UHGV virus genome: UHGV-0287696
From: a virus
Reading direction: 5' to 3' (one strand)
Length of the DNA: 64,000 nucleotides
Part shown: positions 26,039 to 31,182 of the stretch, piece after piece
Numbering within the stretch: position 1 is the first letter of the stretch
Layout: the number at the start of each line of letters is the position of its first letter
Program-made: the position numbers and the translations under genes
The notes under the pieces: generated by a model
Databases searched by the model: none
What the model was told of the DNA's origin: nothing
What the model saw: only the letters and a program-made list of their open reading frames with translations

Positions 26039-26887
26039 ATGTCTCTTACGTCAAAACAGAAACTGCTAAAACTCATCAACACTGAAAACAATATTGTTCC
26101 GCCATTGACCTTCAGTGATGTTGATATCGGCGAACCTACTGGTACTGGGGTTGATACCCAGGTGGTTCTGACTTCTAAACTCAAAGGCGATGAGTCTACT
26201 ACTTTAACTGTGACTTATCATCGTCGTAATTTGCCCGAATACCTAACAGGTGAGTTGGTATTCGGTAACGATGGTGTTGTAACCGCTACAGATTTGCTTA
26301 ATGCAATCAACGCAAAATACGATTTAAATATCCTGCCGTCGGATATCGTTGATGCGAAAGTTGAAGGTGAAACCCATCAGCTTACCGCTAACGAGAAATC
26401 CTACGAATGGTGTGGCGAGGTGACACTTACGCTACGCGACCCTATTGATTTGGCTAAACTGTTACCTGTTACTCAATTAGAAAACCTGGTAGAGTATCCG
26501 TCCACTAAGAAAGGTAACGCAGCGGTTTATTCTTATCCAATTGACTTCACCGCAGAAAAAGATTACCTCGATCCGATTACCATTAACGACACTGTCGACC
26601 TGGCTGAGTTAGCCACTAAACTGGTCAACGTCGTTGATGAGAAATGGGTAAGTGTACCTAAAAACGCTGCTAATAACCTCTACGGTGCTAAGGTTATCTA
26701 CGATGGCCCTACCGCAGGTTACGAAGGCGCAAATACGAAGTACACGCGTGTGCTGGTACTCGCACTCAGTGGACTGTGTGCTAACCTGACCGGTAATCTG
26801 TTAATCCACTTTAACGGTACCGATCGTCCGAAGTCGAAGATTGAATTAGCTAAAACTAATTCGGTCTTACCGGGATTCTTAGATTAA
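26039..26887 (+). CDS. member of a four-gene paralog family (possible virion protein)
   Basis: 282 aa; N-terminal pattern and DLLNAIN...NILPSDI motif shared with 26901, 30041 and 30652. Confidence 0.6.
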   Translation: MSLTSKQKLLKLINTENNIVPPLTFSDVDIGEPTGTGVDTQVVLTSKLKGDESTTLTVTYHRRNLPEYLTGELVFGNDGVVTATDLLNAINAKYDLNILPSDIVDAKVEGETHQLTANEKSYEWCGEVTLTLRDPIDLAKLLPVTQLENLVEYPSTKKGNAAVYSYPIDFTAEKDYLDPITINDTVDLAELATKLVNVVDEKWVSVPKNAANNLYGAKVIYDGPTAGYEGANTKYTRVLVLALSGLCANLTGNLLIHFNGTDRPKSKIELAKTNSVLPGFLD

Positions 26888-26900
26888 GAGGATTACAGTA

Positions 26901-27377
26901 ATGACCAGTCAAGAAACTATCTTCGACCTTATTAAAAAGGCTAACCCAGACGCTGAGCTCGACACCGCCAAAGTTACATTGGGTGAGCCCGTCGTAAGTA
27001 CCGGTGCGTACAACACCGAAGTTACGGTTGCGTCAATTAAGAATCTCGGTTATGCTAATAAGCAAACGTTCCAGTATAACCGCATTGATGCAGGTTTGTA
27101 TTTCCTCAACGTATTGCCGAAACTGTTAGTTGAATCAGCAACTACGACTGCGGACCTGTTGCCTGTAATTAACGAACAATATGGCTTAACCCTTACTGAA
27201 GACGACGTATGGGTAGAGCAGGTTGGTGAGTTACCGCTGGACGGCAGTACAATCGAGCACGGCATTTTCTTCCGTCCTGAGTGCCTAACCTGGGTCGGTG
27301 GTTTTACAGTGCGCGTTGCGCGTAAGCCGACTGTTGAAACACCGCCAGCTAATCCATCGCGCGCTAAGAAGAAATAA
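26901..27377 (+). CDS. member of a four-gene paralog family
   Basis: 158 aa; VTLGEPV...NTEVTVASIKNL and DLLPVINEQYGLTLTEDDV. Confidence 0.6.
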   Translation: MTSQETIFDLIKKANPDAELDTAKVTLGEPVVSTGAYNTEVTVASIKNLGYANKQTFQYNRIDAGLYFLNVLPKLLVESATTTADLLPVINEQYGLTLTEDDVWVEQVGELPLDGSTIEHGIFFRPECLTWVGGFTVRVARKPTVETPPANPSRAKKK

Positions 27378-27383
27378 CGACAG

Positions 27384-27417
27384 GGTGGGGTAATCCCACC
27401 CTCTTTTCTTTTTTTGT
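27384..27417 (+). terminator. rho-independent terminator
   Basis: hairpin gggtgggg-taat-cccaccc followed by T-run. Confidence 0.8.
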
Positions 27418-27438
27418 GTAAAAGAGGAGTTAAACAAA

Positions 27439-28029
27439 ATGGCCGAACGTTGGACTAAAGAAGGTATTATTGCTTCGAAAACAGATTTAGAAGGCGGGTA
27501 CGTAAACGACCCTGACGATAAAGGTGGGGAAACCTGTCACGGTGTAACACTAACAACTGCGCGCGAATACGGGTATAAAGGAAGAATGAAGGATCTGACC
27601 CGTGCGCAAGCGTTTGATATTTACGATCGCGGTTGGTGGAAGAAACTTAAACTCGATGAGATTTTAGCTATCTCACCCTTACTCGCAGACCGGATGTTTG
27701 ATTTTGCTATTAACTCTGGCCGCGTTAACTGCGTGAAATCGTTACAACGTATTCTCAACGTTTTAAATAACGAAGGGAAACTTTACGCAGATATTGACAC
27801 CGACGGCGGTATGGGACCTAAAACGCTAGGTGCCCTGAATGCTTATCTGAATTACCGTAAAGACGAAGGATTAGGCATCTTAATCTTTGCCTTAATCTCA
27901 CACCAGGTAACTTACTACACAGAAATCTCCGAAAAGCGTAAGAAGAATGAAAAATTCGCTTACGGCTGGTACGCACGTGTGTTCAGGGAAATGCCGGATT
28001 ATGTGGCGAAGGCGGGGTTAGTAAAATGA
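27439..28029 (+). CDS. endolysin, glycoside hydrolase family 108-like lysozyme with peptidoglycan-binding C-terminus
   Basis: 196 aa; N-terminal EGGYVNDPDDKGGETCHGVT matches the GH108 catalytic signature; C-terminal GGMGPKTLGALNAYL resembles a PG-binding domain. Confidence 0.75.
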   Translation: MAERWTKEGIIASKTDLEGGYVNDPDDKGGETCHGVTLTTAREYGYKGRMKDLTRAQAFDIYDRGWWKKLKLDEILAISPLLADRMFDFAINSGRVNCVKSLQRILNVLNNEGKLYADIDTDGGMGPKTLGALNAYLNYRKDEGLGILIFALISHQVTYYTEISEKRKKNEKFAYGWYARVFREMPDYVAKAGLVK

Positions 28030-28130
28030 ACTGGTTTGCTAAACTCTTAGCGTTATTGTGGAAAGCGTTAACGTCTGGGCGGAAACGTAAAGACGAAAAG
28101 CGTGGATACGAATTTTTCTGGTTTCTATAA
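28026..28130 (+). CDS. small overlapping ORF, possible lysis-associated membrane peptide
   Basis: 34 aa MNWFAKLLALLWKALTSGRKRKDEKRGYEFFWFL; ATG overlaps the endolysin stop (ATGA); amphipathic and basic; absent from the ORF track (below 60 aa). Confidence 0.3.
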   Translation: MNWFAKLLALLWKALTSGRKRKDEKRGYEFFWFL

Positions 28131-28136
28131 GGGAAG

Positions 28137-29304: not shown

Positions 29305-29422
29305 CTATTTCTAAGGTGTTTATACCTTATTTCGTATAAAGACGCTTAGAATGCGTTCTACGCACGATTTGGCGGTTAAAATGAATATACCCTACTCCTT
29401 AACGGGAGTAGGGTAGTTTTTA

Positions 29423-29902
29423 TTATTCCGCAGGATGGAGCATTGTTCCGGTGTCAGGAGCTACGCCTTCCTTACAGTGGAAGAAAGTAATGCCTTTACC
29501 ATCACCCGTTTTATATTCTAAAGTAGAATACGCAAACGTTGGCGTTTTTGAAAGTAACCCATTTACACGGTAGTAACGTTGCCCCGTGATAGGATCGATA
29601 TTTCCATTAACTTTACCTAATAAATCTTTATAAAGTTGGGGTGACTCAATCTTACCATTTGGCCAAGTGGCTACCCAGTTAGCGCCAGTATCGATTACAG
29701 TTACTGAACCTAACATTAGGTTAGTCGAACTGACGACAGGTTTGTAATTTACAAAATCCTGCTCTACACCCATACAGGTGTAAATAACCATGTCGTGTGG
29801 CTCTACGGGTACAGTTGAGAATTGGCCATTACTATTCGGTTGTAAAGCACATCCTGCTAATGAAAAAACACCAACCATAGCGATAAGAAAACGTTTTAGC
29901 AT
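29423..29902 (-). CDS. lipoprotein, candidate superinfection-exclusion or receptor-masking protein
   Basis: ORF track frame 29423..29962; internal ATG at 29902 gives MLKRFLIAMVGVFSLAGC with lipobox LAGC; AAGGTGA Shine-Dalgarno; lone minus-strand gene between plus-strand genes. Confidence 0.7.
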   Translation of the reverse strand: MLKRFLIAMVGVFSLAGCALQPNSNGQFSTVPVEPHDMVIYTCMGVEQDFVNYKPVVSSTNLMLGSVTVIDTGANWVATWPNGKIESPQLYKDLLGKVNGNIDPITGQRYYRVNGLLSKTPTFAYSTLEYKTGDGKGITFFHCKEGVAPDTGTMLHPAE

Positions 29903-30040
29903 GTTTTCACCTTTTATAAAAAAGTTAAAAATAATAATTTTACAGACGACCCTTACTGCCATCTGTCATAACTATTAAAACCACTTCTATAATCCGAACA
30001 ATACTATGCAATCCACCCTGCCACACACGAGGTAAAAACG

Positions 30041-30586
30041 ATGGCTAAAGCTTTCAATCTGCAGCTCATTGAAGCTGTTAAAGCTAAAAACCCTGAAACT
30101 GCTTCTAAACTGACCGTAAATGATGTCGATTTCGGGGCCGTAGAAGCTTACACCCCGACCGGTAAAAGCGACGCCCGTAACACTAAAGTTGTCCTGACAG
30201 CGAAGAGCACGAGTGCTAACTTCACCGGTAATAAAGAATTTCATTACATCCGTCTGGCATCCGCTAACCTGATTGGGGCCAAAGCTTACCAGCAGGAAGG
30301 TAGCCTCGACCTGGAAAATGACGCCATCGTAACCAAACTCAATCAAGAAATGGTTACTAAAGGTTATGCCGATGACGCGTTCGCTGTAGGTGAACTCACT
30401 ATTGAGAAAACTAATGGCGAGAGCGGTGCTAAGGTTTACACTATCAAAGTAAACGAAGGTCACATCAAATTCTTAGCCGGTACCATTGCTACCTTCACCT
30501 ATACCAACCCGGTTCCTCCGAAGGTAGCTCTGAGCGGCCTGGAAGGTGAACTGGATGGTTTCACCGCACCGTCTCCTAAAGAGTAA
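30041..30586 (+). CDS. member of a four-gene paralog family
   Basis: 181 aa; N-terminal pattern KNPETASKLTVNDVDFG...NTKVVLTA...ANFTGNKEFHYIR shared with 30652. Confidence 0.6.
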   Translation: MAKAFNLQLIEAVKAKNPETASKLTVNDVDFGAVEAYTPTGKSDARNTKVVLTAKSTSANFTGNKEFHYIRLASANLIGAKAYQQEGSLDLENDAIVTKLNQEMVTKGYADDAFAVGELTIEKTNGESGAKVYTIKVNEGHIKFLAGTIATFTYTNPVPPKVALSGLEGELDGFTAPSPKE

Positions 30587-30590
30587 TTAA

Positions 30591-30625
30591 ATCGGGGAGG
30601 GGGTAACCTCCCCGATATTTCTTTA
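30591..30625 (+). terminator. stem-loop, probable terminator
   Basis: atcggggagg-gggtaa-cctccccgat followed by a T-rich tract. Confidence 0.55.
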
Positions 30626-30651
30626 ACTCGTACTATTAAGGATTTAAGATA

Positions 30652-31182
30652 ATGGCAGCTACTAACCAGATGATGTTGGTCGCGCTTTACAATGCTGCTA
30701 ACACCGAGCTACCACATCAGGTAACTGATAAAGAAGTGTCCTTTGGTCTCCCTACTGCGCTGGAAGGCGAAGGTAAGAATACCAAAGTTACCATGACTGC
30801 ACTACCAGGTTCTGAGAATTTCAAAGGCGCAATCGAACTGAAATACGATCGTCTGGAACCGGGTGTTGTAGGGCGTATTGAACTAACTGACGATCTGTCT
30901 CGTTGGGAAGATCAAAACGAATTGCGCGCATGGTTACAATATTACATCAATAAAGTTAAACCGGACGATGCTATTCATCCAGCGGACGTTTCTTATTCTA
31001 CCGAAGACCAGAAAGACGAACATGAAAACGTCACTCTGCGTACGGTAACGTGCACCGTTACTGAAAAGAACCTCCGTTATAAACCAGGTGTAATGGCAAC
31101 TTTCGTAATTACGCCGAAAGTTGTTGATAATCGTATTGACCTGGCCACCACCAACGGTGAGCTGGACGGCTTTACGTCCTAA
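30652..31182 (+). CDS. member of a four-gene paralog family
   Basis: 176 aa; TDKEVSFGLP...NTKVTMTALPGSENFKGAIELKYDR. Confidence 0.6.
   Translation: MAATNQMMLVALYNAANTELPHQVTDKEVSFGLPTALEGEGKNTKVTMTALPGSENFKGAIELKYDRLEPGVVGRIELTDDLSRWEDQNELRAWLQYYINKVKPDDAIHPADVSYSTEDQKDEHENVTLRTVTCTVTEKNLRYKPGVMATFVITPKVVDNRIDLATTNGELDGFTS

What the first reader, a model, noticed from the sequence alone, without database searches (positions are those of the whole stretch)
26039..31182. Four-member paralog family split by the lysis cluster and the lipoprotein gene
The genes at 26039, 26901, 30041 and 30652 share an N-terminal pattern (NP-x...(T/V)-x-x-DV-x-(F/L)G-x-P...NT-x-V-x-x-TA...NF-x-G) consistent with repeated structural units (for example decoration or fibre-associated proteins). 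The interruption by lysis genes and an antisense lipoprotein suggests insertion of a cassette into an older tandem array.
Basis: seen in the sequence. Interest (0 to 1): 0.45.

Follow-up and report, generated by a model that had tools for sequence, protein, structure and literature searches.

The report
Jumbo-phage DUF7941 virion filament genes
The four genes are real paralogs of a known family of jumbo-phage virion proteins (Pfam DUF7941, "paralog family B" of Salmonella phage SPN3US), which are thought to link head-to-tail into filaments; the cell-wall-hydrolase genes between them are old neighbours rather than a recent insertion.

Summary

The family is larger than reported. The window holds two more members, at 10196 and 16184, both beside tail-fibre genes. 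A complete related genome holds eight.

The window belongs to an uncultured relative of SPN3US, apparently the proposed genus 'Bapsvirus'. A corresponds to SPN3US gp138, B to the N-terminal domain of gp141, and C and D to gp160. In SPN3US these proteins are "paralog family B". [quoted passage not shown]

The insertion idea is not supported. Seoulvirus, Erskinevirus and every close relative share the same interleaved order. In Goslar and phiKZ an endolysin also sits beside a short DUF7941 gene. Derbicusvirus carries an inverted version of the block.

What changed in this lineage:
- It lost about 16 genes of an ancestral 18-gene array.
- Its remaining copies diverged quickly.
- A gained a C-terminal LPGF tail motif.
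- B has no tail motif.
- C became a hypervariable allelic cassette.

Verdict: a new member of a known kind, of moderate interest.

The parts
26039..26887 (+). Gene A, 282 aa. Full-length DUF7941 protein: N-terminal domain (about 1-135), linker, C-terminal domain ending LLIHFN (to 259), then a 23-aa tail. Ortholog of SPN3US gp138; same type as phiKZ gp127 and Goslar gp22.
   Evidence: Pfam 182.8 bits over residues 2-259. 45% identical to SPN3US gp138. Hits PDB 9xqd PHIKZ127 at E 7e-7. AF2 N-terminal domain pLDDT about 80, residues 136-266 low.
26816..26884 (+). C-terminal extension of A (aa 260-282, GTDRPKSKIELAKTNSVLPGFLD), carrying a variant of the family's tail motif.
   Evidence: Aligns with the ...DLxxxNGELDGF tails of C and D; L277 and F280 are at least 90% conserved across the family. 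Absent from gp138 orthologs of SPN3US, Phobos, CR5 and phiEaH2, which end at ...LHF/YN. Present in all close relatives. pLDDT rises to 79 locally, against below 50 in the flanks.
26901..27377 (+). Gene B, 158 aa. Short DUF7941 protein: N-terminal domain plus a basic tail (RKPTVETPPANPSRAKKK). It is the only family member without the LxGF tail motif. Closest to the N-terminal half of SPN3US gp141.
   Evidence: Pfam 104 bits over residues 2-143. 40% identical to gp141 residues 7-162. C-termini compared.
27382..27402 (.). Terminator-like GC-rich hairpin after the A-B pair.
27439..28029 (+). GH108 muramidase with a PG_binding_3 domain (endolysin type). Ortholog of SPN3US gp156; same type as Goslar gp24.
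   Evidence: Pfam 84.1 and 60.7 bits; phrog_315 endolysin; synteny.
28146..28811 (+). DUF1353 protein (ORF opens at 28137). Ortholog of SPN3US gp157. PHROGs label it 'tail assembly chaperone'.
   Evidence: Pfam 54.1 bits; phrog_1158; the PGAP gene model in the E. coli record gives the start.
28789..29304 (+). M15-like protein (ORF opens at 28765). Ortholog of SPN3US gp158, 78% identical.
   Evidence: phrog_894 endolysin at E 1e-28; no Pfam or PDB sequence hit. The Phobos ortholog is annotated peptidase M15A. SPN3US gp158 was detected at low level in virions but not in tailless particles (PMC5105663).
29388..29415 (.). Bidirectional terminator-like hairpin between the convergent M15-like and lipoprotein genes.
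29423..29902 (-). Antisense lipoprotein gene (ORF extends to 29962; the likely start gives MLKRFLIAMVGVFSLAGC with an LAGC lipobox). Ortholog of SPN3US gp159. Function unknown.
   Evidence: Sequence; phrog_9559; conserved position in SPN3US and phiEaH2; absent in Phobos and CR5; 69-92% identical among close relatives.
30041..30586 (+). Gene C, 181 aa. Short gp160-type DUF7941 protein (N-terminal domain 1-155 plus tail). Hypervariable among close relatives.
30062..30609 (.). Segment of sharply reduced DNA identity (36-72%) to the closest relative L003, whose flanks are 90-100% identical. This is an allelic replacement cassette covering the body of C.
30521..30562 (+). Tail motif of C (aa 161-174, KVALSGLEGELDGF). 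It is the most conserved part of the otherwise variable protein.
   Evidence: Mean column entropy 0.24 over 115 sequences (C plus 114 homologs), against 0.9-1.05 in the loops.
30591..30616 (+). Terminator-like hairpin directly after C.
30652..31182 (+). Gene D, 176 aa. Second gp160-type DUF7941 protein, conserved among close relatives.
   Evidence: Pfam 41 bits; phrog_4862 at E 1e-33. 30% identical to C. 91-98% identical among relatives.
31132..31173 (+). Tail motif of D (aa 161-174, RIDLATTNGELDGF).
31197..31227 (.). Bidirectional terminator-like hairpin between D and the convergent DUF4376 gene.
10196..10789 (+). Fifth DUF7941 gene in the window (197 aa, short form). Ortholog of SPN3US gp122. 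It lies directly upstream of the long tail-fibre gene.
   Evidence: Pfam 69.6 bits; 45% identical to gp122.
16184..18118 (+). Sixth member, 644 aa. A tail-fibre body (aa 7-464) fused to a C-terminal DUF7941 module (aa 482-616, nt 17627-18031).
   Evidence: phrog_13714 tail fiber at E 3e-181, plus Pfam DUF7941 at 51.9 bits. In L004-L006 the module is a separate 170-171-aa gene.

Best explanation
A, B, C and D encode virion proteins of the chimallivirus-specific DUF7941 family, which is the same family as SPN3US 'paralog family B'.

Each protein has a globular alpha/beta N-terminal domain of about 140 residues. In every member except B this is followed by a short conserved tail or linker motif (hydrophobic-x-L-x4-G-E-L-D-G-F).

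The most likely mechanism is that the tail or linker of one protomer docks onto the N-terminal domain of the next. The proteins would then chain head-to-tail into flexible filaments anchored at the outer baseplate, which increases contact with host cells.

Proposed roles in this phage:
- The A-B operon corresponds to the phiKZ gp127-gp126 pair seated on the peripheral baseplate. A would be the anchor and adaptor. It is unusual in carrying both an internal linker with a C-terminal domain and an extra terminal tail motif.
- B would be an acceptor only, acting as a cap.
- C and D correspond to the abundant short subunits (SPN3US gp160, Goslar gp23) that would make up the bulk of the filament. C is the exchangeable, surface-variable subunit and D is the constant one.

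The cell-wall-hydrolase genes and the antisense lipoprotein between the two pairs are conserved ancestral neighbours.

What is shown: homology, fold, synteny, loss of the array, tail-motif conservation and C hypervariability. What is inferred: filament formation, baseplate anchorage and the individual roles of A to D.
For: Family membership:
- Pfam hits above threshold for all four genes.
- A hits the same chain by sequence.

Virion proteins: SPN3US gp138-154 and gp160 were detected by mass spectrometry, with gp141 and gp160 at more than 300 copies (PMC5694885).

Filament model:
- Purified Goslar gp22 forms filaments.
- AF3 predicts head-to-tail docking.
- A gp126-gp127 dimer fits unexplained density in the phiKZ baseplate map (preprint).

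- The tail motif sits at the extreme C-terminus of gp160-type and long array members in five genera.
- It is the most conserved segment of hypervariable C.
- It receives locally raised pLDDT in monomer models.
- Many library proteins carry 2-4 tandem DUF7941 modules in one chain, which look like covalent versions of a head-to-tail chain.
- DUF7941 genes sit next to tail-fibre, adhesin and depolymerase genes.
- A followed by a short B mirrors phiKZ gp127 followed by gp126, in the same order and on the same strand.
Against: SPN3US proteomics placed the whole family in the head, because it was found in DNA-filled tailless particles (PMC5105663). That conflicts with anchorage only at the baseplate.

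The Goslar authors saw no DUF7941 density in their own baseplate map. They also note that their preparation co-purified large free assemblies, so the copy numbers and the attachment are uncertain.

The C-terminal half of the A model is low-confidence.

The roles assigned to A, B, C and D individually are inference from domain content and orthology only.
Confidence: 0.6

Rival explanations
1. The proteins are head components, either capsid-attached fibres or decoration, or internal proteins, rather than baseplate filaments.
For: All SPN3US paralog-B proteins were detected in purified tailless, DNA-filled particles. Densitometry on those particles gave more than 300 copies each of gp141 and gp160 per capsid (PMC5105663, PMC5694885).
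Against: [quoted passage not shown] High-resolution capsid models of Goslar do not include DUF7941 proteins. Self-assembling filaments could co-purify with heads. The genes lie among tail-fibre and baseplate genes.
Confidence: 0.25
2. One reading: a lysis and lipoprotein cassette was inserted into a once-continuous tandem array of these paralogs.
For: In Derbicusvirus (Phobos, CR5) the gp160-type genes abut the array, and GH108 and the lipoprotein are absent from the locus. So at least GH108 and the lipoprotein are dispensable at this site.
Against: The same interleaved order is found in Seoulvirus, Erskinevirus and all six Bapsvirus-type genomes. An endolysin is adjacent to a short DUF7941 gene in Goslar and phiKZ too. 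The Derbicusvirus arrangement is an inversion that keeps DUF1353 and M15-like next to the gp160-type genes. A/B and C/D are distinct ancient sub-types (phrog_1037 against phrog_4862), not recently separated copies.
Confidence: 0.1
3. The shared N-terminal pattern is chance or compositional similarity, and the four genes are unrelated.
For: Direct A/B against C/D BLASTP is not significant. hhalign probabilities are only 20-42%.
Against: All four score above the Pfam gathering threshold. There are PHROG cross-hits, the fold match of C to an A-type solved structure, and an iterated HMM that converges on the same family in ten further phage genomes.
Confidence: 0.01

Closest known systems
SPN3US 'paralog family B' (gp83, gp138-154, gp160, gp237, possibly gp122); Thomas et al. 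2016, Ali et al. 2017
   Same: Direct orthology: A to gp138 (45%), B to the gp141 N-terminal domain (40%), C and D to gp160 (46% and 35%), 10196 to gp122 (45%). The flanking genes and their order are the same: GH108 gp156, DUF1353 gp157, gp158, antisense gp159, then DUF4376 and two radical-SAM genes.
   Different: SPN3US has an 18-gene array (gp138-155) where this phage has only A and B. SPN3US has one gp160 and this phage has two. A carries an extra tail motif that gp138 lacks. B lacks the C-terminal domain of gp141. The DUF7941 genes here are far more diverged than expected: gp160 is 68% identical between SPN3US and Phobos but only 46% and 35% identical to C and D, although the neighbouring enzymes show this phage is the closer relative of SPN3US.
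Goslar gp22 and gp23 and the 'DUF7941 fibre cloud' (bioRxiv 10.64898/2026.04.21.720040)
   Same: Same Pfam family. There is a long form (N-terminal domain, linker, C-terminal domain: gp22, like A) and a short form (N-terminal domain plus linker: gp23, 180 aa, like C and D). A GH108 endolysin (gp24) is adjacent.
   Different: Only about 23% identity. The Goslar multi-domain members have the module at the N-terminus, whereas here one member has it at the C-terminus of a fibre protein. The preprint does not link the family to SPN3US paralog family B and does not describe the terminal GELDGF motif as such.
phiKZ gp127, gp126 and gp143 (PDB 9xqd, outer peripheral baseplate)
   Same: A hits gp127 by sequence and the C model hits it by fold. 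A long gene followed by a short gene on the same strand (gp127 then gp126) mirrors A then B. The short gp143 lies next to the endolysin gp144.
   Different: phiKZ is reported to have only three members. Its endolysin is of a different type. gp126 and gp143 lack a recognisable GELDGF tail.

Membership tests
Pfam PF25613 (DUF7941) | Sequence scores above the curated gathering threshold (27 bits) | tested here: met
   A 182.8, B 104, C 32 and D 41 bits. Also 10196 at 69.6 bits and 16184 at 51.9 bits.
Pfam PF25613 (DUF7941) | N-terminal globular domain with the fold solved for phiKZ gp127 residues 1-150 | tested here: met
Pfam PF25613 (DUF7941) | Encoded by a chimallivirus (the family is reported to be exclusive to Chimalliviridae) | tested here: met
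   The window is syntenic with SPN3US (Seoulvirus, Chimalliviridae). The lineage matches the proposed chimallivirus genus 'Bapsvirus' (PMC12768965). Chimallin itself was not searched for in the window.
DUF7941 filament-forming proteins (Goslar model) | Head-to-tail self-assembly through the linker or tail docking on the next N-terminal domain | not testable with these tools
   No multimer prediction was available. Indirect support only: tail conservation, locally raised pLDDT of the tails, and tandem-module proteins.
DUF7941 filament-forming proteins (Goslar model) | Incorporation into virions and attachment to the peripheral baseplate | not testable with these tools
   Orthologs are virion proteins in SPN3US, but were assigned to the head (PMC5105663). 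gp127 is in the phiKZ baseplate (9xqd). No data exist for this phage.
SPN3US paralog family B | Orthology and conserved position relative to gp156-gp164 | tested here: met
   Best reciprocal-type hits and an identical order of flanking genes.
   A GH108 plus PG_binding_3 muramidase is present. No holin or i-spanin was identified. The lipoprotein is antisense and stands alone. The SPN3US ortholog of the M15-like protein is a low-copy virion protein dependent on the tail, which suggests an entry role rather than a lysis role.

The most novel reading that the evidence does not exclude
This lineage may have rebuilt the DUF7941 system into a minimal, modular filament.

- A would be a bivalent adaptor: its internal linker and C-terminal domain bind the tail-less cap B, and its newly acquired terminal LPGF tail seeds a filament of C and D.
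- The bulk subunit C would itself be the host-facing or antigenic determinant, swapped between phages as an allelic cassette while its docking tail stays fixed.

If this is right, a filament subunit rather than a classical receptor-binding protein would be a host-range or immune-evasion locus. The Bapsvirus set of 8 genes, against more than 20 in SPN3US, would also be the simplest system in which to settle the conflict between head and baseplate location.
Probability: 0.2. Interest if true: 0.6.

Novelty: new member of a known kind. Interest (0 to 1): 0.35.

Why it matters
The function of this very large paralog family has been open since 2016. The SPN3US proteomics (head) and the 2026 structural work (baseplate filaments) disagree on where the proteins sit, and the two literatures have not been connected to each other.

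This window shows a natural reduced version of the system that keeps orthologs of gp138 and of exactly the two high-abundance SPN3US members, gp141 and gp160. It also points to a conserved terminal docking motif, and it identifies one subunit as a recombination hotspot.

That gives concrete constructs and predictions for testing the filament model. It also explains most of the genome-size gap of about 19 kb between Seoulvirus (about 240 kb) and the 'Bapsvirus' lineage (about 220-227 kb). Beyond that, the four genes are ordinary members of a family that has already been described.

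Tried and rejected
- Megablast of the locus against cultured phages found only a 408-bp match at 75% identity, so no cultured close relative exists in that collection.
- Direct profile-to-sequence hhalign between the C type and A or B was weak, so it was not used as primary evidence.
- A search of IMG/VR with the conserved M15-like protein for genomes with an intermediate array size found only Bapsvirus-type loci, SPN3US itself and one distant 31%-identity hit.
- A search of the Ali 2017 supplements for gp156-160 returned nothing in the text that is held.
- The more distant hits of the third homolog search were not retrievable, which limited alignment depth. As a result the A model is poor beyond residue 135.
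- PADLOC, NCBIfam and PDB sequence searches gave nothing for the lipoprotein, DUF1353, M15-like, DUF4376 or p190 proteins.
- I considered B as a deletion remnant fused to the end of gp155. No similarity of its basic tail to any array C-terminus was seen, and short forms are a normal sub-family (phrog_2935), so this remains unresolved.
- I considered D as the ortholog of the second gp160-type gene of phiEaH2. This was rejected because both C and D match the first copy best.
- I looked for a link between C alleles and host genus. The source names show Salmonella, E. coli and Shigella mixed within allele groups, so no simple correlation is apparent.

Full report
**1.

All four match Pfam PF25613 (DUF7941) above its 27-bit gathering score, at 182.8, 104, 32 and 41 bits. 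PHROGs divide them into two sub-types that cross-hit each other. A and B fall in phrog_1037/2935 ('virion structural protein'); C and D fall in phrog_4862.

Pairwise BLASTP is significant only within a sub-type: A-B is 26% identical and C-D is 30% identical at E 1e-13. Direct profile-to-sequence comparison across sub-types is weak, at E 3e-4 and 1e-3. Three results close that gap:
- phmmer links through SPN3US paralogs.
- An HMM iterated over related loci, which converges on one family.

**2. The family is larger than four.**

The window holds two more members. One is 10196-10789, a 197-aa short form scoring 69.6 bits. The other is the C-terminal 135 residues of 16184-18118, whose first 464 residues are a tail-fibre body (phrog_13714, E 3e-181). 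A complete genome of the same lineage has eight confident members.

**3. Which phage this is.**

No cultured phage is close at the DNA level. Five IMG/VR contigs, four of them 151-225 kb and one of 107 kb, are 89-98% identical in A, B and D. Many contigs of 218-227 kb from Salmonella, E. coli and Shigella isolate assemblies carry the same genes.

Two complete 'plasmid' records are about 85% identical across the locus: E. coli 98232 (221,873 bp) and Enterobacter ludwigii (222,441 bp). This matches the proposed chimallivirus genus 'Bapsvirus' (PMC12768965). That genus comprises 247 genomes of about 220-249 kb found in bacterial assemblies, syntenic with Seoulvirus.

**4. What is already known about the family.**

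In SPN3US the orthologs are 'paralog family B': 20-21 virion proteins, gp83, gp138-154, gp160 and gp237, and perhaps gp122. Thomas and colleagues called it potentially the largest paralog family in any phage. They assigned it to the head because it is present in tailless particles. gp141 and gp160 are present at more than 300 copies each, and the function is unknown (PMC5105663, PMC5694885).

An April 2026 preprint on Goslar names the DUF7941 family. It finds gp22 at about 580 copies and gp23 at about 2140 copies per virion, and shows that purified gp22 forms filaments. It predicts head-to-tail docking of one protomer's linker or C-terminal domain onto the next protomer's N-terminal domain. 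It also fits a gp126-gp127 dimer into the phiKZ peripheral baseplate map and proposes a 'fibre cloud' for host recognition.

That preprint does not mention SPN3US. The two bodies of work, and their conflicting head and baseplate locations, have not been reconciled.

**5. Orthology of the four genes.**

- A is the gp138 ortholog (45% identical).
- B is closest to residues 7-162 of gp141 (40%).
- C and D are both gp160-type (46% and 35%).
- 10196 is the gp122 ortholog (45%).

This lineage therefore keeps gp138 plus relatives of exactly the two high-abundance SPN3US members. A followed by the short B also mirrors phiKZ gp127 followed by gp126.

**6. The insertion hypothesis.**

Gene order was classified with HMM and phmmer searches over all fetched loci.

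| Group | Order |
|---|---|
| This window, six close relatives, SPN3US | array, GH108, DUF1353, M15-like, lipoprotein (-), gp160-type, DUF4376 (-), p190 (-), two radical SAM genes (-) |
| phiEaH2 (Erskinevirus) | the same, without the M15-like gene and with two gp160-type genes |
| Phobos, CR5 (Derbicusvirus) | array, gp160-type (-) x4 or x1, M15-like (-), DUF1353 (-), DUF4376 (-) |
| Goslar | GH108 endolysin gp24 lies between the gp31-34 group and gp23/gp22 |
| phiKZ | gp143 abuts endolysin gp144 |

The Derbicusvirus arrangement is an inversion of the block, without GH108 or the lipoprotein.

Across more than 20 Seoulvirus and Erwinia phage records, the A-type and C-type hits lie 18-23 kb apart on the same strand. 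The interleaving is therefore ancestral to at least three genera. The pairing of an endolysin with a short DUF7941 gene is older still. An insertion in this lineage is not supported. Only a very ancient insertion, or gain or loss of GH108 and the lipoprotein, remains possible.

**7. What did change in this lineage.**

*Array loss.* Neighbouring conserved genes place this phage much closer to SPN3US than either is to Phobos or CR5:

| Gene | Window vs SPN3US | Either vs Phobos/CR5 |
|---|---|---|
| rSAM1 | 82% | 59-64% |
| M15-like | 78% | 56-58% |
| rSAM2 | 69% | 41-44% |
| DUF4376 | 58% | 32-35% |

. The SPN3US and Phobos arrays are one-to-one orthologous at 37-72% identity. Parsimony therefore says the array was ancestral and this lineage lost about 16 of 18 genes, roughly 19 kb. 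That is about the size difference between Seoulvirus and Bapsvirus genomes.

*Fast divergence.* The retained DUF7941 genes evolved unusually quickly. gp160 is 68% identical between SPN3US and Phobos, but only 46% and 35% identical to C and D.

*A new tail on A.* All Bapsvirus-type A proteins carry a 23-residue C-terminal extension, GTDRPKSKIELAKTNSVLPGFLD. It aligns with the tails of C and D and is absent from every other gp138 ortholog examined.

*B has no tail.* B is the only member without a tail motif and ends in a basic stretch.

*C is a hypervariable cassette.*
- Among genomes whose A, B and D are 89-98% identical, C is 49-81% identical.
- C has 118 clusters at 90% identity, against 25 for A.
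- Against the closest relative, DNA identity falls from 90-100% to 36-72% exactly across 30062-30609. That pattern indicates allelic replacement by recombination.
- Variation sits in the loops at residues 31-40, 81-95 and 121-130. The tail (161-170) is the most conserved segment.

**8. The tail motif.**

A motif of the form DL(S/A)xxNGELDGF lies at the extreme C-terminus of the following:
- gp160-type proteins.
- The long (about 470-510 aa) array members in SPN3US, Phobos, CR5 and phiEaH2.
- In degenerate form (LTF, LDGL, ADGF), the other short members and Goslar gp23.

Full-length forms instead end with the C-terminal domain signature LxLHYN. Monomer AlphaFold models give the tails locally raised confidence, 72-74 in C and 79 in A against below 50 in the flanks.

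In a library of 1.84 billion representative proteins the family has 1332 members at E <= 1e-3. Many of them carry 2-4 tandem modules in one chain, which looks like a covalent version of a head-to-tail polymer. These observations fit the docking model but do not prove it. No multimer prediction could be run.

**9. The intervening genes.**

- 27439-28029 is a GH108 plus PG_binding_3 muramidase.
- 28146-28811 is a DUF1353 protein.
- 28789-29304 is M15-like by PHROG only. Its SPN3US ortholog gp158 is a low-copy virion protein that is absent from tailless particles, which suggests a role in entry rather than lysis.
- 29423-29902 (-) is a lipoprotein with an LAGC lipobox and no known function.

No holin or spanin pair was identified. 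Terminator-like hairpins follow B, the M15-like/lipoprotein junction, C and D. These imply the separate transcription units A-B, GH108-DUF1353-M15-like, lipoprotein, C, and D.

**10. Verdict.**

The 'structural or fibre-associated' reading is right. The 'inserted cassette' reading is not supported.

The genes are new members of a known family, in a lineage described so far only from bacterial assemblies. The added value lies in five points: the link between the SPN3US and Goslar literatures, the array collapse, the terminal motif, the tail-bearing A with the tail-less B, and the C allelic cassette. Interest is moderate.

Noticed in passing
window 10196-18738: Each gp122-like DUF7941 module is followed at once by a gene whose first 45 or so residues share an anchor-like motif (MAxxVKKxRLHEL..GD...V.L.SKDE.EYQLP). 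This holds for the 1532-aa fibre at 10992, for the 206-aa protein at 18118, and for SPN3US gp123. It suggests adaptor plus receptor-binding-protein pairs.
   Followed up: partly
window 10992-16096: A T-even-style long tail fibre (Phage_fiber_2, Gp34_trimer, C-terminal Peptidase_S74 chaperone; 1532 aa), followed by a gp38-like adhesin (Gp38_N, 72 bits), inside a chimallivirus genome. Close relatives carry different fibre and adhesin sets at this position.
   Followed up: partly
window 16184-18118; L004 1658-2173: The DUF7941 module is fused to the C-terminus of a fibre body in this window and in L003, but is a separate 170-171-aa gene in L004-L006. In the Goslar multi-domain members the module is N-terminal.
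   Followed up: partly
whole window; NZ_CP173450.1, NZ_CP134650.1: The phage lineage occurs as circular 'plasmids' of about 222 kb in complete E. coli and Enterobacter ludwigii assemblies, and as contigs of 218-227 kb in many Salmonella, E. coli and Shigella assemblies. [quoted passage not shown]
   Followed up: yes
window 23760-25872: A paralog pair, 23760-24188 and 25441-25872 (both phrog_8484, unknown function), flanks a 386-aa gene (24211-25371) that is only 60-77% identical among close relatives.
   Followed up: no
window 31251-35583 (minus strand): A block of DUF4376, a 190-aa protein, two radical-SAM/SPASM proteins resembling peptide maturases, and a 299-aa protein. It is conserved in position from Derbicusvirus to Seoulvirus but is mosaic among close relatives: 51-100% identity, and 99-100% to L003.
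   Followed up: no
L006 14142-14378: In one close relative (IMGVR_UViG_3300045988_095954) the C ortholog is reduced to a 78-aa ORF that covers only the C-terminal part. This may be a pseudogene or an assembly error.
   Followed up: no
L001/L002 (SPN3US gp145-153); L007; L026: The distal half of the big array is a threefold repeat of a 3-gene unit: a DUF7941 protein of about 470-500 aa ending in GELDGF, followed by two proteins of about 300-330 aa that the DUF7941 HMM does not detect.
   Followed up: no
L026 708-2525 (phiEaH2 39707-41524): An EPS depolymerase gene lies directly upstream of the gp138 ortholog in phiEaH2. This fits a host-recognition role for the neighbourhood.
   Followed up: no
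window 38042-51858 (minus strand): Three consecutive giant genes (1727, 1401 and 1440 aa) lie in the position, after gp161-164, where SPN3US encodes its 'paralog family C' baseplate/fibre candidates (gp168-170). The first matches RAY gp18-20. The adjacent 401-aa protein (36802-38007) matches phiKZ gp131, gp134 and gp135 and Goslar gp25.
   Followed up: no
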